NCBI GenBank assembly: GCA_041600715.1
Contig: JBFIJM010000001.1
Coordinates: 609,701-673,700 of the forward strand
DNA: 64,000 nt
DNA from: Candidatus Saccharimonadales bacterium
Lineage (GTDB): Bacteria > Patescibacteriota > Saccharimonadia > Saccharimonadales > 2-12-FULL-41-12
Reading direction: 5' to 3'
In this document: piece by piece, positions 8,246 to 48,974 of the stretch
Position numbering within the stretch: the first letter of the stretch is position 1
Layout: each line of letters starts with the position of its first letter
Position numbers and translations under genes: made by a program
Notes under the pieces: generated by a model
Seen by the model: the letters and a program-made list of their open reading frames with translations, nothing else
Database searches by the model: none
What the model was told of the DNA's origin: nothing

Positions 8246-8758
8246 ATGAGACGTCTGTTATTAATTCTTTGCGTTACTGCGGTGGGGACTCTCGGTTCTG
8301 CCGGTCATTCTAATGCGCAAAATCTTCAGGATGGACAAGCCAACCTCCAGCAACGCACTGGGCAAACACAAGATACCGGGCGTTTACAGAATCAAACGGC
8401 TCCTCTACAGACAAATAACAGTGGCGGTTTGCTTACCCAGACACAACCCGGTTCACTTAGCGTAGTATCGAGTCCAACCCAAGCAAAGCCTGACGTAACA
8501 GTAAACGCAAGCAAAGACACCACAAATACGCCTGGGCAAACTACCAAAACAAATCAAAGTACTTGGCGTATCCTAGCATTATTAAGTATTTTAGGGTTAG
8601 TCACCAGTCTCTATATATATTCACGCACGAATAATAAAAGATCGAATATACCTATTGAAGTTTCTATTGAAAAGACGTCAAAAGAAATTATCGAAAAGCC
8701 AAAACGTGTCAAGAAATCAAAGGCAAAAAAGAAAAAGAAGAAAGCACATCATCATTGA
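8246..8758 (+). CDS. Secreted/membrane-anchored low-complexity protein
   Basis: The start was moved to the internal Met, giving the signal peptide MRRLLLILCVTAVGTLGSAGHSNA. Q/T/N-rich middle region, C-terminal TM helix and a poly-Lys tail ending in HHH. Confidence 0.5.
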   Translation: MRRLLLILCVTAVGTLGSAGHSNAQNLQDGQANLQQRTGQTQDTGRLQNQTAPLQTNNSGGLLTQTQPGSLSVVSSPTQAKPDVTVNASKDTTNTPGQTTKTNQSTWRILALLSILGLVTSLYIYSRTNNKRSNIPIEVSIEKTSKEIIEKPKRVKKSKAKKKKKKAHHH

Positions 8759-8760
8759 GT

Positions 8761-8808
8761 AGGAATTAGGAATTAGTAATTAGGTGGTAGGTAGTAGTTA
8801 GTAGTTAG
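8761..8808. repeat. TAG/GGAATTAG-unit dispersed repeat copy in a convergent intergenic region
   Basis: Sequence AGGAATTAGGAATTAGTAATTAGGTGGTAGGTAGTAGTTAGTAGTTAG. Shares the GGAATTAGTAATTAGG units with the copies at 14.05, 14.48, 22.6, 24.6 and 48.1 kb. Has stop codons in all three plus-strand frames. Confidence 0.7.
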
Positions 8809-8815
8809 CGGGGGG

Positions 8816-12953: not shown

Positions 12954-14042
12954 ATGAAGCTTCAAGTAACTCAAGAAAACCTAAACCGAGCACTAAGTAA
13001 TGTGGCTAGGGTAGCTAGTGGTCGTAATGCCCTACCTATCTTATCTAACGTACTTATAAAAACCGTAGACAACCGTGTGTGTATCGCTGCGACAAATTTA
13101 AATATTGCGATTACTCACTACATAGGTTCAAAAGTTTCAGAACCAGGCTCAGTAACCGTCCCCGCTCGTTTAACCCAGGATTTTGTAGCTAGTTTATCTA
13201 GTGGAGTAATAGATATTGTGGTTGACGGAACAAAACTACACATAAAGACCGACTCTTACAACTCTACAATTAATGGAGCTCCAGCCGATGATTACCCTGT
13301 TATGCCTCAGATTAAACAAGGCACAACCTGGAGTGTGCCGTCAGCTAGTCTTAAAAAAGCACTACAACAAGTAGTTATCGCGTCCAGCAACGACGACACT
13401 CGACCGGTTCTGACTGGGGTTTACTTCCATACTCACGAAGGTTATTTATATGTAGTTTCAACGGATAGCTACCGACTTGCAGAGCGAAAAATAATGAAGC
13501 TTAAAGAACAAGTATCTTTACTTATCCCGGCTACCGCTATCAATGACTTGCTTCGTATTATGACTGACAGCGACAAAGAGGTTGTAGTAAAACACGATGA
13601 ACAACAAGTGTTGTTCACTATAGGCGACATAGAGCTTGTAACTCGTTTAATCGACGGATCATACCCAGACTATAGAAAGTTAATTCCCGGATCGTTTGCG
13701 ACAAGTGCTACTTTACCGCGTGCTGAGCTGTCAAACATTACTAAAGTGTCAAGCCTTTTCGCCAGAGAAAGTGCTGGAAGTGTTACCCTCAACGTAAGCG
13801 AAGGTGATAAACAGATAAGTATACAATCGGTAGCTTCTCAACTTGGAGAAAATACTGCAACGGCTAGTGCTGAAGTTTCTGGTGATGGAGCTATTACACT
13901 TAACTCACGATACATAATTGATTCTCTAGGTGTTATCGGTGACGACACAGTGTCGGTAAGTTTCAACGGTAAGCTTGAACCGTGCCTACTACAGGGAGCC
14001 GACAAAGACTACACACACATCATCATGCCACTTAAGTCCTAG
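12954..14042 (+). CDS. dnaN: DNA polymerase III beta sliding clamp
   Basis: 362 aa with full-length DnaN-like sequence (TRPVLTGVYF, TDSYRLA, LIDGSYPDY, MPLK C-terminus). Confidence 0.95.
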   Translation: MKLQVTQENLNRALSNVARVASGRNALPILSNVLIKTVDNRVCIAATNLNIAITHYIGSKVSEPGSVTVPARLTQDFVASLSSGVIDIVVDGTKLHIKTDSYNSTINGAPADDYPVMPQIKQGTTWSVPSASLKKALQQVVIASSNDDTRPVLTGVYFHTHEGYLYVVSTDSYRLAERKIMKLKEQVSLLIPATAINDLLRIMTDSDKEVVVKHDEQQVLFTIGDIELVTRLIDGSYPDYRKLIPGSFATSATLPRAELSNITKVSSLFARESAGSVTLNVSEGDKQISIQSVASQLGENTATASAEVSGDGAITLNSRYIIDSLGVIGDDTVSVSFNGKLEPCLLQGADKDYTHIIMPLKS

Positions 14043-14092
14043 ACAATAGTAATTAGTAAATAGTAATTAGGAATTAGTATAATTACTTAAAG
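14043..14092. repeat. TAG/GGAATTAG-unit repeat copy, left flank of the four-helix-bundle gene
   Basis: Sequence ACAATAGTAATTAGTAAATAGTAATTAGGAATTAGTATAATTAC. The segment AATTAGGAATTAGTA is inverted relative to the copy at 14476-14490. Confidence 0.7.
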
Positions 14093-14452
14093 ATGTCTAC
14101 TGATAAAATTAACTCGTTCACAGATCTGTTGGCTTGGCAGAAGTCACACGAGCTTACGGTCGCAGTATTTAAGATCTTTAAATCAGCAAAGAATAACAAT
14201 CTTCGATCTCAGATTGAACGATCCAGCCTCTCCGTAACTTCAAATATAGCAGAGGGTTTTGGGCGAAGTTCACAAAAAGATAAAGACCACTTTTACGTAA
14301 TGGCCAGAGGTTCTGCCTTTGAGGTTCAGAGTCAGTTGTTTGTGGCGCGTGACATTGCCGATATTACCCAAGAAGAGTTTGTCGAGCTTCTTAATAAGTC
14401 AGTCGATTCAATAAAACTTTTACATGGTCTTATAAGATCATTGAGAGGTTGA
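14093..14452 (+). CDS. Four-helix-bundle protein (23S rRNA intervening-sequence protein / Avd-like family)
   Basis: 119 aa. Family-typical pattern: LLAWQKSHEL, QIERSSLSVTSNIAEGFGRSS, KDHFYVMARGSAFEVQSQL. Confidence 0.85.
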   Translation: MSTDKINSFTDLLAWQKSHELTVAVFKIFKSAKNNNLRSQIERSSLSVTSNIAEGFGRSSQKDKDHFYVMARGSAFEVQSQLFVARDIADITQEEFVELLNKSVDSIKLLHGLIRSLRG

Positions 14453-14460
14453 AGCTATGA

Positions 14461-14497
14461 TACTATTTCCTATTTACCAATTCCTAATTTCTAAAAA
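14461..14497. repeat. TAG/GGAATTAG-unit repeat copy, right flank, inverted orientation
   Basis: Sequence TACTATTTCCTATTTACCAATTCCTAATTTCTAAAAA. The reverse complement contains AATTAGGAATTGGTA, matching 14/15 positions of the left-flank copy. Confidence 0.65.
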
Positions 14498-22560: not shown

Positions 22561-22581
22561 CAGAATTTTCTCCCAGAAAAT
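22561..22581 (-). promoter_or_regulatory. Conserved translation-initiation leader, copy 1 (ATTTTCTGGGAGAAAATTCTG-ATG)
   Basis: The 21 nt directly upstream of the 1050-aa gene ATG match 20/21 positions of the 21 nt upstream of the virB4 ATG. Contains the SD-like GGGAGA 8 nt before the ATG. Confidence 0.6.
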
Positions 22582-22582
22582 T

Positions 22583-22655
22583 CAGCAACTAGGAAGTAGC
22601 AACTAGGAAGTAGCCAAACTCCTAATTTCCAATTCCTAATCCCAAGTTCCATGCT
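22583..22655. repeat. TAG-unit hairpin repeat between virB4 and the 1050-aa gene
   Basis: Direct repeat CAACTAGGAAGTAGC x2 followed by CCTAATTTCCAATTCCTAATCCCAAGTTCC. The arms can pair imperfectly (with G-U pairs) in the minus-strand transcript. Confidence 0.6.
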
Positions 22656-24572: not shown

Positions 24573-24593
24573 CAGAATGTTCTCCCAGAAAAT
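24573..24593 (-). promoter_or_regulatory. Conserved translation-initiation leader, copy 2 (ATTTTCTGGGAGAACATTCTG-ATG)
   Basis: Matches 20/21 positions of 22561-22581. The next codons begin ATGGC in both genes. Confidence 0.6.
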
Positions 24594-24594
24594 A

Positions 24595-24636
24595 GCAAAT
24601 TCCCAATTACTAATTCCCAATTACTAATTACTAGGA
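24595..24636. repeat. TAG/GGAATTAG-unit repeat upstream of virB4
   Basis: The segment TAATTCCCAATTACTAATTACTA at 24611-24633 is the exact reverse complement of the 23-mer TAGTAATTAGTAATTGGGAATTA at 48071-48093 inside tsaD. Confidence 0.8.
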
Positions 24637-35538: not shown

Positions 35539-35575
35539 AAACTAAAAATCCCACTTTTTGGTGGGATTTTTAGTT
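35539..35575 (-). terminator. Hairpin terminator immediately 3' of tRNA-Arg
   Basis: AAACTAAAAATCCCAC-TTTTTG-GTGGGATTTTTAGTTT, a 16-bp stem abutting the encoded CCA end. Confidence 0.75.
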
Positions 35576-35652
35576 TGGTACACCCGGCAGGATTTGAACC
35601 TACGACCTTTGGCTCCGCAAGCCAACGCTCTATCCAGCTGAGCTACGGGTGC
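35576..35652 (-). tRNA. tRNA-Arg (anticodon GCG)
   Basis: 77 nt. Manual cloverleaf: acceptor GCACCCG/CGGGTGT, D arm GCTC-AGCTGGATA-GAGC, anticodon arm TTGGC-TTGCGGA-GCCAA, T arm GTAGG-TTCAAAT-CCTGC. CCA is encoded. Confidence 0.85.
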
Positions 35653-36703: not shown

Positions 36704-36796
36704 GGAGAGGTACCCAAGTGGCTGAAGGGGACGGTTTGCTAAATCGTTAGTGGGGCGAGAGTCCCAGCGAGGGTTCGAATCCCTCTCTCTCCGCCA
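36704..36796 (+). tRNA. tRNA-Ser (anticodon GCT)
   Basis: 93 nt. Acceptor GGAGAGG/TCTCTCC, anticodon arm ACGGT-TTGCTAA-ATCGT, long variable arm, T arm GAGGG-TTCGAAT-CCCTC. CCA is encoded. Confidence 0.9.
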
Positions 36797-36833
36797 AACT
36801 AAAAAGACTTACTTTTTGTAGGTCTTTTTAGTT
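36797..36833 (+). terminator. Hairpin terminator immediately 3' of tRNA-Ser(GCT)
   Basis: AACTAAAAAGACTTAC-TTTTT-GTAGGTCTTTTTAGTT, a 16-bp stem with one G-U pair. Its flanks are near-identical to those of the tRNA-Arg terminator. Confidence 0.75.
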
Positions 36834-36921
36834 TCCGCGGGAGCGACGGGCTGCTAGAACCCAACGACATCAGGAGTTAGGGTTCGGCGTAGCGAAAGTT
36901 CTCGCAGAAGTTTACTTCGAG

Positions 36922-37938: not shown

Positions 37939-37975
37939 AATTAAAAAGACCTAACTGATGCAGGTCTTTTTAATT
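37939..37975 (-). terminator. Hairpin terminator immediately 3' of tRNA-Ser(TGA)
   Basis: AATTAAAAAGACCT-AACTGATGC-AGGTCTTTTTAATT, a 14-bp stem abutting the CCA end. Confidence 0.75.
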
Positions 37976-38065
37976 TGGCGGAAGGGGAGGGATTCGAACC
38001 CTCGGTACCGTTGCCGGCACGACGGTTTTCAAGACCGTTTCCTTAAACCACTCGGACACCCTTCC
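37976..38065 (-). tRNA. tRNA-Ser (anticodon TGA)
   Basis: 90 nt. Acceptor GGAAGGG/CCCTTCC, anticodon arm ACGGT-CTTGAAA-ACCGT, long variable arm, T arm GAGGG-TTCGAAT-CCCTC. CCA is encoded. Confidence 0.9.
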
Positions 38066-46513: not shown

Positions 46514-47200
46514 ATGAATCAGGTCCTCGATCAAAGATTAAGGGACATGACACCAGAATTGGGAGCCGAACCTACAATAGAAGATATCCTAAAGTTCGCT
46601 CACTATGCTTTTGAGCATGACGGACTAAATACGCCAGAGAGTCTTGATCCCTTTACGGTCTTAGAACGGGCGCGAAATGGGGAGAAGATGCGATGCGTAG
46701 AATATGCAATTATGGCCAGTAGTCTGTTGACAGCTTACGGAGTCCCAGCTCGGAGAATAGCCGGTTTTGAGGCAAAGAAAGACGAGTTTAATGGCCATGT
46801 ATTTATCGAATACTGGAACAATGACGCAGAGAAGTGGGTGATGCACGATCCGCAGTGGGGCATGACACCCTATATTGATGATGTACCTCTGTCAGCTCAT
46901 GAACTTCGACACGCATTTGAGGCAGAAAAACAGATTGATTTCCAGTCGATTCCTTCTCTCCGCTCTGGTGTTGATACTAGAGAATATGCAGACTGGGTCC
47001 GCCCGTACATGGATGTGTTCGACACGCCAGGTGTTGTGGCCATCACTGATCACAAATCACTCCAACAGCACACCAATGAGCATCGTTTTCGTCTTAGTCG
47101 GAGCATAGTAGTGTCTGCAAAAGTAGCTGATATTGGTCCATCTCATCTCCAGGAAGTTTCAGTAGAACAATTCTACGCACCACCTCTGCAAACTACATAG
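46514..47200 (+). CDS. Transglutaminase-like (Cys-His-Asp) domain protein
   Basis: Start set at MNQVLDQ. Putative catalytic pattern: RCVEYA (Cys), NGHVFIEYW (His), WVMHDP (Asp). Confidence 0.6.
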   Translation: MNQVLDQRLRDMTPELGAEPTIEDILKFAHYAFEHDGLNTPESLDPFTVLERARNGEKMRCVEYAIMASSLLTAYGVPARRIAGFEAKKDEFNGHVFIEYWNNDAEKWVMHDPQWGMTPYIDDVPLSAHELRHAFEAEKQIDFQSIPSLRSGVDTREYADWVRPYMDVFDTPGVVAITDHKSLQQHTNEHRFRLSRSIVVSAKVADIGPSHLQEVSVEQFYAPPLQTT

Positions 47201-48338
47201 GAAAGTTGGGCTTGATATCTAAGGTATACGGATCGGCTGGATCTACTCCTCCCTTGGCCATATGATAGGCAAGGGTGGCGATCATGGCGCCGTTGTCGGT
47301 GCATAGTTTCATGTCAGTGTAGATCGGCATGATCGGCAAAGCTTCGGCTAACTGGCGTCGTAGCTCAGGGTTGGCAGCTACGCCACCGGCTACCACAACG
47401 GAAGCAGGGGAGTGCTCATGGTACGCCAGTAAGGTTTTCTCGACCACTGTTTCCACAGCAATACGCTGAAAACTGGCCGATATGTCTGCTTTCTGAGCCT
47501 CTGAGAGTCGCTCAGACAGTTGCACTGACGGAAAGCCGTAATCTTCCCCTATTTCCGCTTGAGCAAGGCGTAGAACAGCTGTCTTAAGCCCAGAGAAGCT
47601 AAATTCATACGGTTTATCAAGCTTGGCTTTAGGTAGTTGATATTTAAAGGGGTCGCCTTTTTCTGCCATTTTGCCAACACTGGGCCCGCCAGGGTAGGGG
47701 AGTCCAAGAATCTTGGCTACTTTATCGAATGCTTCACCAATAGCATCGTCACGTGTCTGGCCGAGTAACTCATACACAAGCGGACTCTGAAAAAGCACAA
47801 TCTGACTGTGCCCACCACTGACAATAAGCGCTAACATCGGAAATTCAGGTGCTTGAGGAGGTAGCACATACTCTTGCAAGGATGGACCCTGCAATGTGAG
47901 GAAGGTGGCGAAAGGGTGAGCAGACACATGGTTAACAGCGTACAACGGCTTTTTCTTGGCAATTGCGAGCGTCCTGGCGGTCAGCACGCCAGCGAGCAAA
48001 CTGCCTCCCAGTCCAGGGCCTTGAGTAACAGCAATGGCATCAATTTGATCCCATGGATCAAGCTCGGAATTAGTAATTAGTAATTGGGAATTAATATTAC
48101 TCCTAGTTCCTAGTTCCAAATTCCTATTTTCTGGATAAAAGGCTTCGGAAAGAGCCTTTTCGACGACTGGCATCATGTGCTCTATATGGCTACGGGCAGC
48201 GATTTCTGGTACGACACCACCATAAACTGCATGTAGGTCCATAGAACTTGCCACTACATTAGATAGCAGTAACTGACCGTTTTCTACAACAGAGGCAGAG
48301 GTTTCGTCGCAACTTGTTTCGATGCCAAGAATTTTCAT
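47193..48338 (-). CDS. tsaD: tRNA N6-adenosine threonylcarbamoyltransferase TsaD, carrying a roughly 22-25 aa repeat-derived insertion
   Basis: 381 aa. GIETSCDETS, YGGVVPEIAARSH, VTQGPGLGGSLLAG and SGGHS motifs. The extra segment ENRNLELGTRSNINSQLLITNS lies between the conserved blocks. Confidence 0.93.
   Translation of the reverse strand: MKILGIETSCDETSASVVENGQLLLSNVVASSMDLHAVYGGVVPEIAARSHIEHMMPVVEKALSEAFYPENRNLELGTRSNINSQLLITNSELDPWDQIDAIAVTQGPGLGGSLLAGVLTARTLAIAKKKPLYAVNHVSAHPFATFLTLQGPSLQEYVLPPQAPEFPMLALIVSGGHSQIVLFQSPLVYELLGQTRDDAIGEAFDKVAKILGLPYPGGPSVGKMAEKGDPFKYQLPKAKLDKPYEFSFSGLKTAVLRLAQAEIGEDYGFPSVQLSERLSEAQKADISASFQRIAVETVVEKTLLAYHEHSPASVVVAGGVAANPELRRQLAEALPIMPIYTDMKLCTDNGAMIATLAYHMAKGGVDPADPYTLDIKPNFPM
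48066..48135. repeat. TAG/GGAATTAG-unit hairpin repeat embedded in frame within tsaD
   Basis: Sequence GGAATTAGTAATTAGTAATTGGGAATTAATATTACTCCTAGTTCCTAGTTCCAAATTCCTATTTTCTGG. Has a 23-nt exact match to the virB4-upstream copy and ends with the same ATTTTCTGG that begins the T4SS leaders. The two arms can pair imperfectly. Confidence 0.8.
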
Positions 48339-48410
48339 ACGTAAATCTAAGTATAACCAAAGACCGTGATAATTGACATTCTTATAAGATAGTGGTTTAT
48401 TAAAGTTATT

Positions 48411-48974
48411 ATGTCAGAGTACCATGACCGAGGTCGACTACAATTAGAACGTGCACATGGGTACGAAAGTCGGTTACGTTGGCAACAACCAATATATGGC
48501 GATAATGCCGGTATGCTCGAGGGAGGCACTAATGCTGAATGCTCTCCCACCAGCGAGGAAGTTATACAAGAGAATGTAGATTGGCTTCATAACTATTTGG
48601 ATAGCGTCGAGCAACAGGCTATCGAACGAAGAGGAATTAATCTATTCAGAAGGGGTCATCTTAGCCACCAGGCTGATATATATGTGGACAAACACTCCGG
48701 TATGATACTAGAGATTGACTATGTGGATGGGGCGCTTAACCATGAGGTCGTTAATGCCGAGGACAGCGTTCAGCTTACTATCGAAGTTTCTATAGACAGA
48801 AACTCTATAAATCGTAACGGGAATGGTTTTCCTCGTCATCAGCTATATATTTCTAGGCCGGTTTACGAAAGAGACAATATAGACTACAAAATTGAGGACA
48901 AACTGTCGCCAAATGCGATTAAAAACCTCGAAATGACCTTAGAGCATTGCCGGAATATTTCTGAGAAAAACTGA
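48411..48974 (+). CDS. Hypothetical protein
   Basis: 187-aa ORF in an otherwise gene-dense region. No recognisable motif. Confidence 0.4.
   Translation: MSEYHDRGRLQLERAHGYESRLRWQQPIYGDNAGMLEGGTNAECSPTSEEVIQENVDWLHNYLDSVEQQAIERRGINLFRRGHLSHQADIYVDKHSGMILEIDYVDGALNHEVVNAEDSVQLTIEVSIDRNSINRNGNGFPRHQLYISRPVYERDNIDYKIEDKLSPNAIKNLEMTLEHCRNISEKN

What the first reader, a model, noticed from the sequence alone, without database searches (positions are those of the whole stretch)
48066..48135. Repeat element inserted in frame into the essential gene tsaD
Seen in sequence:
- TsaD is intact at 381 aa.
- Between the conserved blocks ...VVEKALSEA and DQIDAIAVTQGPG it carries about 25 extra residues. Within these, ENRNLELGTRSNINSQLLITNS is encoded antisense by a complete copy of the dispersed repeat.
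- That copy includes the 23-mer shared with the virB4 upstream region and the terminal ATTTTCTGG that begins the T4SS leaders.
- The element avoids stop codons only in the frame actually used.

Established knowledge: E. coli-type TsaD has only about 7 residues at this position. In-frame insertion of palindromic repeats into protein genes is known from Rickettsia palindromic elements.

Inference: a comparable phenomenon in a CPR-like reduced genome would be notable. It also dates the element as mobile, or at least recently mobile.
Basis: partly seen in the sequence, partly recalled or inferred. Interest (0 to 1): 0.75.

Follow-up and report, generated by a model that had tools for sequence, protein, structure and literature searches.

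The report
Heptamer-repeat insert inside Saccharibacteria tsaD
A conserved tRNA-modification enzyme (TsaD) of a tiny-genome Saccharibacteria bacterium carries, in frame, a 78-base block built from two opposed runs of 7-base repeats that otherwise fill this genome's intergenic spacers, and the same surface loop has repeatedly picked up such 7-base arrays in related species.

Summary
tsaD (47193-48338, minus strand, 381 aa) is intact and scores as the TsaD equivalog. At 48054-48140 it carries 26 extra codons compared with its two nearest orthologues, which are 85% and 83% identical outside the insert.

The insert is not a discrete RPE-like element. It is two opposed arrays of four heptanucleotide units each: GGAATTA-type at 48066-48093 and TCCTAGT-type at 48101-48128. 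The same unit family fills five short intergenic spacers in the window and shares an exact 23-mer with one of them. AlphaFold models the insert as a low-confidence coil between helix 44-67 and strand 101-105.

The new result is that this loop, and a second loop, carry heptamer arrays in all 10 tsaD genes read at DNA level (window plus nine orthologues), and the unit sequence differs between lineages. Across 10 loci with 143 ORFs, all 18 ORF-internal arrays lie in tsaD. Saccharibacteria without tsaD arrays had no arrays in 352 kb of flanking DNA.

Heptameric repeat arrays are a known but unexplained bacterial feature. Finding them repeatedly in frame in one core enzyme looks new. The most likely reading is a tolerated passenger that creates a disordered loop. 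The copying mechanism is unresolved.

The parts
47193..48338 (-). tsaD coding sequence (381 aa), intact
   Evidence: ORF. TIGR03723 equivalog at 359 bits. The AlphaFold model has mean pLDDT 90.3 and matches E. coli YgjD with target-normalised TM-score 0.90.
48054..48140 (-). Codons F67-P95: the block that replaces the three residues D-V-T of the nearest orthologues, a net gain of 26 codons
   Evidence: Alignments. HMM and PDB matches are split at residues 67/93. Block-mean pLDDT falls to 66 (residues 71-80) and 50 (81-90); residues 79-83 are below 50.
48066..48093 (+). Arm A: four heptamers GGAATTA GTAATTA GTAATTG GGAATTA. Read antisense, they encode NSQLLITNS.
   Evidence: Period-7 scan. Contains the exact 23-mer shared with 24611-24633.
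48094..48100 (+). 7-nt spacer ATATTAC between the two arms
   Evidence: Read directly from the sequence.
48101..48128 (+). Arm B: four heptamers TCCTAGT TCCTAGT TCCAAAT TCCTATT, of opposite polarity to arm A. Read antisense, they encode NRNLELGTR.
   Evidence: Period-7 scan. Aligns with the CTACTTCCTAGTTG repeats of the copy at 22561-22655.
48126..48134 (+). ATTTTCTGG motif, shared with the two T4SS gene leaders
   Evidence: 5 matches against about 1 expected.
22561..22655 (-). The only other two-armed copy in the window. It fills an intergenic spacer and is followed by the leader ATTTTCTGGGAGAAAATTCTG-ATG.
   Evidence: Alignment shows 64% identity to the tsaD copy. The RNA hairpin is -30.8 kcal/mol, z = -3.1.
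24573..24636 (-). One-armed heptamer array plus leader, upstream of the VirB4/TraG-like ATPase gene. Holds the exact 23-mer.
14039..14081 (+). Intergenic TAGnAAT heptamer array between dnaN and a four-helix-bundle protein gene
14468..14493 (+). Heptamer array of opposite polarity between the four-helix-bundle gene and recF
   Evidence: (D2, I14).
8754..8812 (+). Heptamer arrays filling the spacer between two convergent genes

Best explanation
The insert is a 78-nt block made of two opposed heptanucleotide tandem arrays. These belong to the class of heptameric simple-sequence repeats (STRR-like arrays) already known from other bacteria.

**Origin (inferred).** In this genome one unit family (TAGGAAT / TAGTAAT / TGGGAAT and its complement) populates short intergenic spacers. 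One copy was duplicated, in the orientation antisense to tsaD, into the loop after helix alpha-1 of TsaD. The route was probably template switching, gene conversion or non-homologous insertion rather than a transposase.

**Why it persists (part shown, part inferred).** The block length is a multiple of three, and the unit variants present avoid in-frame stops. It is therefore translated as a 26-residue hydrophilic segment that the model places as a low-confidence, probably disordered coil (shown). The enzyme tolerates it, so it behaves as a passenger (inferred).

**Wider pattern (shown).** The same loop and a second loop of TsaD are permissive hot spots. In Saccharibacteria lineages whose genomes generate heptamer arrays, these loops have been filled again and again with arrays of lineage-specific units. 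Older inserts then probably decay into non-repetitive disordered loops (inferred).

Shown: the anatomy, the shared sequence, absence in the nearest orthologues, recurrence, and the loop location. Inferred: the copying mechanism, neutrality, and decay.
For: 1. **Period-7 structure.** Only period 7 gives a signal. There are two arrays in tsaD, and all other arrays in the 64 kb are intergenic or at ORF edges.
2. **Copying between loci.** The exact 23-mer, with the same order of unit variants, occurs at 48071-48093 and 24611-24633; shuffles give 0 expected. The two-armed architecture is the same as at 22561-22655.
3. **Gain in this lineage.** P0002 (85% identical) and P0003 (83%) have the baseline loop ADVTW, which the more distant P0010 also has. 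The syntenic locus L083 has no period-7 tract in 21 kb.
4. **Recurrence.** The nine orthologous tsaD genes read at DNA level all carry heptamer arrays at loop 1 and/or loop 2:
   - L081: GAAGGTG and AATTCCA
   - L082: AAGTCGA and CCTTCAA, at both loops
   - L204: GAGGTTA and CTACCAA
   - L205: GAAGATA, TCTTCCA, AAAGGAG and CTTACTC
   - L206: CCAACTT, at both loops
   - L207: GCGAGCT
   - L208 and L209: GnAnTCA
   - L006: CTACCAC

5. **A genome-wide, lineage-specific trait.** Loci with arrays in tsaD have 9 arrays in 139 kb outside tsaD. The 34 Saccharibacteria loci scored as array-negative (none in tsaD at 17 of 21 matches; one weak tract in L057 at the 16 of 21 used for these counts) have 0 in 352 kb.
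6. **Concentration in tsaD.** All 18 ORF-internal arrays in 10 loci (143 ORFs) are in tsaD.
7. **Loop location.** Block-mean pLDDT falls to 50-66 across the insert in a model with mean 90.3. The core fold matches solved TsaD with target-normalised TM-score 0.90.
8. **Background.** Heptameric SSRs are reported as over-represented and mostly intergenic in many bacteria (PMC4692102, PMC4679880). A scan with (AATTRGK)3AATT hit more than 120 metagenome contigs with GC from 23% to 67%.
Against: - **No mobility machinery or clean junctions.** The only flanking direct repeat is 5 nt (ATCCA at codons 68-69 and 94-95), which could be chance.
- **Flanks hint at a single old insertion.** Insert-bearing orthologues share the residues A-F ... 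D-P-W, which fits one ancient insertion better than many independent ones.
- **Copy-paste is not general.** In L204 the tsaD arrays use units different from the nearby intergenic arrays, so copying of one element is not the rule across genomes.
- **Ascertainment.** The concentration in tsaD was measured on loci chosen because they contain tsaD.
- **Arrays in other enzymes exist.** In a more distant relative (L115) an in-frame (AATTCCC)3 array lies in ValRS.
- **Neutrality is assumed.** The consistent insert size of 33-37 residues could reflect a function.
Confidence: 0.55

Rival explanations
1. A single ancient insertion, inherited vertically. One insert entered the loop in an early Saccharibacteria ancestor. 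Lineages with the short loop lost it. The array sequence in each genome has since been remodelled by slippage and by gene conversion from intergenic arrays.
For: - Insert-bearing orthologues share the flanks AF...DPW and a similar size of 33-37 residues.
- A 12-residue class, AFPxxxDPW, looks like a deletion scar.
- The loop state carries phylogenetic signal: 19 changes against about 30 for shuffled labels.
Against: - The nearest relatives P0002 and P0003 and the more distant P0010 have the identical baseline ADVTW. A deletion would have to regenerate this exactly.
- No mosaic pattern around the insert.
- 19 changes is still a very high level of homoplasy.
- The exact 23-mer shared with an intergenic copy requires recent copying in any case.
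Confidence: 0.25
2. Expansion in place. Each array grew by replication slippage from a short seed already present in the local tsaD sequence, such as CTTCC near both loops. The resemblance to intergenic arrays reflects a genome-wide slippage bias, not copying.
For: - Each genome, and sometimes each array, has its own unit (L204, L205).
- Units at loop 2 resemble the baseline sequence there, ACT TCC.
- Adjacent arrays of different units are common in metagenome contigs.
Against: - The window's tsaD copy and the copy at 24611-24633 share an exact 23-mer with the same order of variant units.
- The whole two-armed layout plus ATTTTCTGG matches the copy at 22561-22655.
- The same unit at both loops of one gene (L082, L206) is unlikely if the expansions were independent.
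Confidence: 0.12
3. The insert is selected for a function. Candidates are a protein-level module (partner or tRNA contact), a DNA or RNA signal on the antisense strand serving the divergent mur-ligase operon, or a frameshift-prone contingency tract that switches tsaD on and off.
For: - Among the loci examined, ORF-internal arrays are found only in tsaD.
- Insert size is consistent across lineages.
- The antisense (+) strand RNA retains hairpin potential (-18.4 kcal/mol, z = -2.4) while the sense strand does not.
- Gaining or losing one 7-nt unit would shift the reading frame. This follows from arithmetic and was not observed.
Against: - Insert peptides are not conserved in sequence.
- Many orthologues lack the insert entirely.
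- No promoter-like site lies in or near the insert on the + strand.
- No Rfam match at gathering threshold.
- No length variants were observed, but none could be looked for.
Confidence: 0.08
4. An assembly or annotation artefact: a repeat collapsed or was chimerically joined inside tsaD.
For: Low-complexity repeats are prone to misassembly. Read-level data could not be inspected.
Against: - The frame is kept exactly.
- The identical 381-aa product is recorded on 3 contigs from NCBI and Logan assemblies.
- Nine orthologues from independent assemblies carry analogous in-frame arrays in tsaD, eight of them at this same loop.
Confidence: 0.02

Closest known systems
Heptameric simple-sequence repeat arrays in bacteria: cyanobacterial STRR, Xanthomonas GGGAATC, Nostoc GGGGA(C/T)T, and TAACTGA repeats in Beggiatoaceae, Cyanobacteria and Bacteroidetes
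   Same: - Tandem 7-nt units, typically about four per array.
- Genome-specific unit.
- Dispersed, mostly intergenic, and close to ORF starts or stops.
- Several different arrays often lie side by side.
- No known mechanism or function.
(PMC4692102 and PMC4679880; window arrays; metagenome hits.)
   Different: - Those arrays are reported as under-represented inside coding regions. Here arrays sit in frame inside a conserved enzyme, recurrently and at the same loops.
- Here they come as two arms of opposite polarity.
- The host is a Saccharibacteria (CPR) genome. Five library searches turned up no report of heptamer-repeat or in-frame palindromic-repeat inserts in Saccharibacteria/Patescibacteria.
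Rickettsia palindromic elements (RPE)
   Same: A short repeat that also occurs in intergenic DNA is found in frame inside conserved protein genes of a reduced genome. It adds a surface peptide without destroying the protein. (RPE properties are from my own knowledge of Ogata et al. 2000; not checked here.)
   Different: - RPEs are discrete elements of about 100-150 bp with a family consensus and a stable palindrome.
- This insert is 78 nt of low-complexity heptamer arrays. It is 64% identical to the only other two-armed copy, and the mRNA strand has no significant hairpin.
STRR heptamers inside the RNase P RNA gene of heterocyst-forming cyanobacteria
   Same: Heptamer arrays lie inside an essential, conserved gene at a structurally permissive position. 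(From my own knowledge of Vioque 1997; PMC2858038 turned up but was not read.)
   Different: That host is an RNA gene, where no reading frame has to be kept. Here the host is a protein gene, so the total length must be a multiple of 3 and free of stops.
Tandem repeats in Borg elements that create intrinsically disordered regions in proteins
   Same: Rapidly evolving tandem nucleotide repeats arise independently inside ORFs and add disordered segments. (PMC9879509; abstract seen.)
   Different: - In-ORF repeats there are expected to have unit lengths divisible by three (my recollection of the paper; not stated in the abstract seen). Here the unit is 7 nt, so only certain combinations keep the frame.
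- Here there are two inverted arms and a single favoured host gene.
MITEs inserted in frame (for example in Coxiella) and the PARCEL palindromic amphipathic repeat coding elements
   Same: Small non-autonomous palindromic DNA contributes coding sequence. (PMC5896051 and PMC2996958; titles and abstracts seen.)
   Different: No terminal inverted repeats of MITE type, no convincing target duplication and no related transposase were seen. The encoded peptide is not an amphipathic repeat.

Membership tests
TsaD (tRNA t6A37 threonylcarbamoyltransferase, TIGR03723 / PF00814) | Whole-protein score above the curated equivalog cutoff | tested here: met
   359.4 bits against a cutoff of 296.1.
TsaD (tRNA t6A37 threonylcarbamoyltransferase, TIGR03723 / PF00814) | ASKHA fold with the metal-binding HxxxH motif and the C-terminal TDN aspartate conserved | tested here: met
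   H137, H141 and D348 are invariant in the alignment. The model matches E. coli YgjD with target-normalised TM-score 0.90.
Heptameric SSR / STRR-like arrays | Head-to-tail units of exactly 7 nt, three or more per array | tested here: met
   Two arrays of four units each in tsaD. Only period 7 gives a signal among periods 4-10.
Heptameric SSR / STRR-like arrays | Dispersed copies of the same unit family in one genome, mainly intergenic and next to ORF ends | tested here: met
   Five further sites in the window, all intergenic or at ORF edges.
Heptameric SSR / STRR-like arrays | Unit number varies between strains (SSR behaviour) | not testable with these tools
   No reads or sister strains of this genome were available. 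P0106 and P0109 (95% identical) have identical loop-1 arrays.
Rickettsia palindromic elements (RPE) | In-frame presence inside conserved protein genes as well as in intergenic DNA | tested here: met
Rickettsia palindromic elements (RPE) | A discrete element with a family consensus recognisable along its whole length | tested here: not met
   Copies are variable arrays. The only other two-armed copy is 64% identical, and four sites carry one arm only.
Rickettsia palindromic elements (RPE) | A stable palindromic hairpin | tested here: inconclusive
   Sense strand z = -0.33; antisense strand z = -2.4. The intergenic copy at 22561-22655 gives z = -3.1. Orthologue L081 gives z = -3.5, but L082 gives +0.7.
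MITE | Terminal inverted repeats plus a target-site duplication | tested here: inconclusive
   The arms are of opposite polarity, but they are internal arrays rather than termini. The only flanking repeat is the 5-nt ATCCA.
MITE | A cognate transposase or parent IS in the genome | not tested
   Only 64 kb of the genome is available. None was noticed in the window.
Amino-acid tandem repeats of the Borg type | Repeat unit length divisible by three | tested here: not met
   The unit is 7 nt.

The most novel reading that the evidence does not exclude
Some Saccharibacteria have an active, still unknown process that writes or copies heptamer arrays into DNA. Under this reading tsaD is a preferred target among coding genes, so these arrays would be a regular source of new disordered loops in a core enzyme. 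A stronger version holds that the 7-nt arrays make tsaD a frameshift-prone switch for t6A synthesis.
Probability: 0.15. Interest if true: 0.8.

Novelty: new variant of a known kind. Interest (0 to 1): 0.55.

Why it matters
Heptameric repeat arrays are common in bacteria and still unexplained. They are thought to avoid coding sequence, because a 7-nt unit breaks the reading frame.

Here they sit in frame in a conserved tRNA-modification enzyme. They recur at the same two loops across many Saccharibacteria, and they appear only in lineages whose genomes also carry intergenic arrays. This gives three things:
- A natural system for asking how such arrays arise and spread. Empty and filled sites exist in relatives that are 85% identical.
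- A concrete route by which new disordered protein loops are born in minimal genomes.
- A warning for annotation and phylogenetics of CPR proteins, whose length variation may be driven by repeats.

If the arrays vary in unit number, tsaD would also be a mutational liability or a switch.

Tried and rejected
- **Hairpin in the tsaD mRNA.** Not significant: z = 0.65 and -0.33. The DNA fold gives z = 0.13.
- **Antisense promoter or terminator at the insert.** None found. The two promoter-like hits in 47900-48500 lie elsewhere and are no more than chance.
- **Known RNA family.** Rfam at gathering threshold finds only three tRNAs in the window.
- **Recombination mosaic around the insert.** Segment identities give no pattern linking the flanks to insert-bearing alleles.
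- **A conserved terminal motif (YTATTTCTGR) as an element end across genomes.** Not general.
- **Retrieving the window's own genome.** Exact protein look-up found nothing on record. The cluster look-up gave no accession.
- **The genome-contig scan.** These served as the negative set.
- **Searching 5.8 billion proteins with the translated array (NSKFQIP)x6.**
  - The first attempt was rejected as too short.
  - The second returned only 30-74-aa hypothetical ORFs without Pfam domains, which are probably spurious calls over intergenic arrays. It says nothing about short in-gene arrays.
- **Literature.** No paper was found on heptamer-repeat or palindromic-repeat inserts in Saccharibacteria proteins.
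Full report
**1. What is at the coordinates**

The minus-strand ORF 47193..48338 encodes a 381-aa protein. It is TsaD by the curated equivalog model: TIGR03723 at 359 bits against a cutoff of 296. Both the HMM match and the matches to solved TsaD structures split into residues 1-67 and 93/96-end. In Thermotoga TsaD, query residue 67 aligns to chain residue 66 and query residue 93 to chain residue 65. Solved enzymes therefore have essentially nothing where this protein has about 25 residues.

On the + strand the segment reads GGAATTA GTAATTA GTAATTG GGAATTA | ATATTAC | TCCTAGT TCCTAGT TCCAAAT TCCTATT | TTCTGG (48066-48134). This is two arrays of four heptamers with opposite polarity, separated by 7 nt.

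A sliding autocorrelation shows that only period 7 gives a signal among periods 4-10. At a threshold of 16 of 21 matches it picks out five tracts in the 64 kb: 8754-8812, 14039-14081, 24603-24634 and the two tsaD arms. The repeat finder adds two weaker members of the family, at 14468-14493 and 22599-22640.

**2.

- The 23-mer TAGTAATTAGTAATTGGGAATTA occurs exactly at 48071-48093 (+) and 24611-24633 (-). Shuffles give 0 expected matches.
- The second site lies upstream of a VirB4/TraG-like P-loop ATPase gene.
- ATTTTCTGG occurs five times against about one expected. It precedes GAGAA..ATG at both T4SS leaders.
- Of the three sense frames only the used one is open. One antisense frame is also open across the element, and other copies have stop-free frames as well.
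- Only one other copy has both arms (22561-22655). It aligns along the whole element at 64% identity.
- The identical protein is recorded on three contigs from two sources, so an assembly artefact is unlikely.

**3. Organism and nearest relatives**

Homologues are Saccharibacteria / Saccharimonadales TsaDs. The commonest length is 353 aa.

Outside the insert, P0002 is 85% identical and P0003 is 83% identical; the next relatives are at about 77%. P0002 and P0003 have the 8-residue loop ..A-D-V-T-W... The more distant P0010 has the same ADVTW loop, and most other insert-free sequences have close variants of it (A-x-x-x-W, often A-D-C-T-W). The window's insert is therefore most simply a gain in its own lineage.

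At this loop the gain is 26 codons (78 nt). The other two extra residues lie in a second loop. The contig carrying P0002 (L083) is syntenic with the window and has no period-7 tract in 21 kb.

**4. The unexpected part: a recurrent hot spot**

Among 120 homologues the loop after helix alpha-1 falls into three length classes:

| Loop length | Number of sequences |
|---|---|
| about 8 residues | 61 |
| 11-17 residues, often AFPxxxDPW | 25 |
| 21 residues or more | 34 |

Most of the long class is 33-37 residues; three sequences have 63-64. The classes are patchily distributed. On a neighbour-joining tree the long state needs about 19 changes, against about 30 for shuffled labels.

I read the DNA of nine orthologues. 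Every one carries heptamer arrays in tsaD:

| Locus (protein) | Heptamer units found in tsaD |
|---|---|
| L081 (P0011) | (GAAGGTG)4 ... (AATTCCA)3 |
| L082 (P0032) | (AAGTCGA)2 ... (CCTTCAA)4 at loop 1, and the same CCTTCAA unit at loop 2 |
| L204 (P0036) | GAGGTTA / CTCCAAT at loop 1, CTACCAA at loop 2 |
| L205 (P0085) | GAAGATA / TCTTCCA at loop 1, (AAAGGAG)4 / CTTACTC at loop 2 |
| L206 (P0004) | (CCAACTT)5 at loop 1, the same unit at loop 2 |
| L207 (P0007) | (GCGAGCT)3 |
| L208 and L209 (P0109, P0106) | (GnAnTCA)4 |
| L006 | (CTACCAC)4 at loop 2 |

The usual layout is a purine-rich arm followed by a roughly complementary pyrimidine-rich arm. Hairpin strength varies widely, from z = -3.5 in L081 to +0.7 in L082.

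**5. A genome-wide trait of some lineages**

| Set of loci (threshold 16 of 21) | Arrays inside tsaD | Arrays outside tsaD |
|---|---|---|
| 8 loci with arrays in tsaD | 16 in 9.3 kb | 9 in 139 kb |
| 34 Saccharibacteria loci without | 1 weak tract (L057) | 0 in 352 kb |

Across ten loci with 143 ATG-ORFs of at least 80 aa, all 18 ORF-internal arrays are in tsaD. The nine others are intergenic or at ORF edges.

Two caveats apply. These loci were fetched because they contain tsaD. Also, in a more distant relative (L115, TsaD 38% identical) an in-frame (AATTCCC)3 array sits in ValRS.

**6. Heptamer arrays beyond this clade**

Most hits are intergenic arrays, often next to a second array with a different unit.

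An unrelated MAG (L064) has three intergenic paired arrays that form very stable hairpins; the two folded gave z = -4.4 and -7.3.

The literature in the library states the following:
- Heptameric SSRs are over-represented in many bacterial genomes.
- They remain functionally unexplained.
- Examples are Xanthomonas GGGAATC and Nostoc GGGGAYT (PMC4692102), and TAACTGA in Beggiatoaceae, Cyanobacteria and Bacteroidetes (PMC4679880).

Five library searches found no report of heptamer-repeat or in-frame palindromic-repeat inserts in Saccharibacteria/Patescibacteria.

A search with the translated array (NSKFQIP)x6 returned only tiny ORFs without Pfam domains. Long in-frame arrays in real proteins therefore appear to be rare.

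**7. Structure**

AlphaFold2 run on a 41-sequence alignment gives mean pLDDT 90.3 and pTM 0.89. The insert is coil between helix 44-67 and helix 95-98 / strand 101-105. Block-mean pLDDT is 66 for residues 71-80 and 50 for 81-90, and residues 79-83 are below 50.

The core matches E. coli and Salmonella YgjD with target-normalised TM-score 0.90. The catalytic residues H137, H141 and D348 are invariant.

Whether the loop touches TsaB, TsaE or tRNA could not be tested.

**8. Interpretation**

The best-supported reading has four parts:
- The window's genome belongs to a lineage that makes heptamer arrays.
- One two-armed copy of its own unit family was duplicated into a permissive TsaD loop.
- Selection kept a version that has a length divisible by three and no in-frame stop.
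- It is translated as a disordered loop that the enzyme tolerates.

Copying between loci, rather than independent slippage, is supported for this genome by two observations. The exact 23-mer has the same order of unit variants at both sites, and the whole layout matches the copy at 22561-22655.

The mechanism is inferred, not shown. Candidates are template switching, gene conversion or some form of insertion. No transposase and no clean target duplication were seen. The 5-nt repeat ATCCA at codons 68-69 and 94-95 would bracket exactly 78 nt and would leave a baseline-length loop if removed, but a 5-nt repeat is weak evidence.

The shared AF...DPW flanks of the insert-bearing orthologues keep a single ancient insertion with later remodelling alive as a rival. 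In L204 each array has its own unit, which keeps expansion in place alive for other genomes.

A functional role cannot be excluded. The possibilities are a protein module, an antisense RNA hairpin (z = -2.4 on the + strand only), or a frameshift-prone switch. No positive evidence supports any of them.

**9. Comparison with known systems**

- The insert behaves like an RPE in outcome: an in-frame surface peptide in a conserved gene of a reduced genome. It fails the RPE definition of a discrete consensus element.
- It meets the definition of a heptameric SSR / STRR-like array. It departs from what is described for those arrays by being in frame, two-armed, and recurrent in one enzyme.
- The closest precedent for such arrays inside an essential gene is the cyanobacterial RNase P RNA gene (my own knowledge), where no reading frame is at stake.

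I rate it a new variant of a known kind.

**10. Verdict**

- Interest is moderate. The single insert is probably a passenger, but the recurrent in-frame heptamer arrays in Saccharibacteria tsaD are a real pattern for which I found no published description, and they can be tested with complete genomes and reads.

Noticed in passing
window 14039-14493: A 119-aa four-helix-bundle protein gene (TIGR02436, the family of 23S-rRNA intervening-sequence / Avd-like proteins) sits between dnaN and recF. It is bracketed by heptamer arrays of opposite polarity (14039-14081 and 14468-14493), as if the arrays marked the junctions of an inserted cassette.
   Followed up: partly
window 22561-22581 and 24573-24593 (minus strand): Two T4SS-region genes share the leader ATTTTCTGGGAGAA(A/C)ATTCTG-ATG. 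In the copy at 22561-22655 it folds as a 9-bp hairpin with GGG in the loop (the purine-rich GGGAGAAAA stretch runs from the loop into the 3' arm), directly after a 60-nt heptamer-array hairpin. This may be a translational control element.
   Followed up: partly
window 35539-35576, 36768-36849, 37939-38004: Palindromic repeats of 38-66 nt (AAACTAAAAAGnCnTAC...GTAGGTCTTTTTAGTTT) lie next to three tRNA genes. They look like shared terminator-like hairpins.
   Followed up: no
L208 638-715 compared with L209: Two TsaDs that are 95% identical differ by a 78-nt in-frame insert at loop 2. It is GC-rich and internally palindromic (CCAAGGTC-G-GACCTTGG), is flanked by the direct repeat CCTCAG / CCTCAA, and is not heptameric. 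A second kind of small insert therefore uses the same loop.
   Followed up: partly
L082 7760-7916: A perfect (GCGTTAG)15 intergenic array is followed by an inverted CTAnnAC-type array. It is much longer than any array found inside tsaD.
   Followed up: no
L064 1125-1225, 1709-1823, 3186-3308: A MAG outside Saccharibacteria has three intergenic paired heptamer arrays in 5 kb. The two that were folded form very stable hairpins (z = -7.3 for 1120-1230 and -4.4 for 1700-1830); the third was not folded. The two-armed layout is therefore not restricted to Saccharibacteria.
   Followed up: partly
L115 5800-5824: An in-frame (AATTCCC)3 array lies inside ValRS of a distant relative and encodes GIPNSQFPISN. 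It replaces a variable linker of similar length (a net 3-residue alignment gap), so arrays inside ORFs are not strictly limited to tsaD.
   Followed up: partly
L016, L022, L032, L034, L037, L057 (tsaD): Other Saccharibacteria TsaDs carry non-repetitive inserts of up to about 120 residues at three or four loops. These may be decayed descendants of repeat-born inserts.
   Followed up: no
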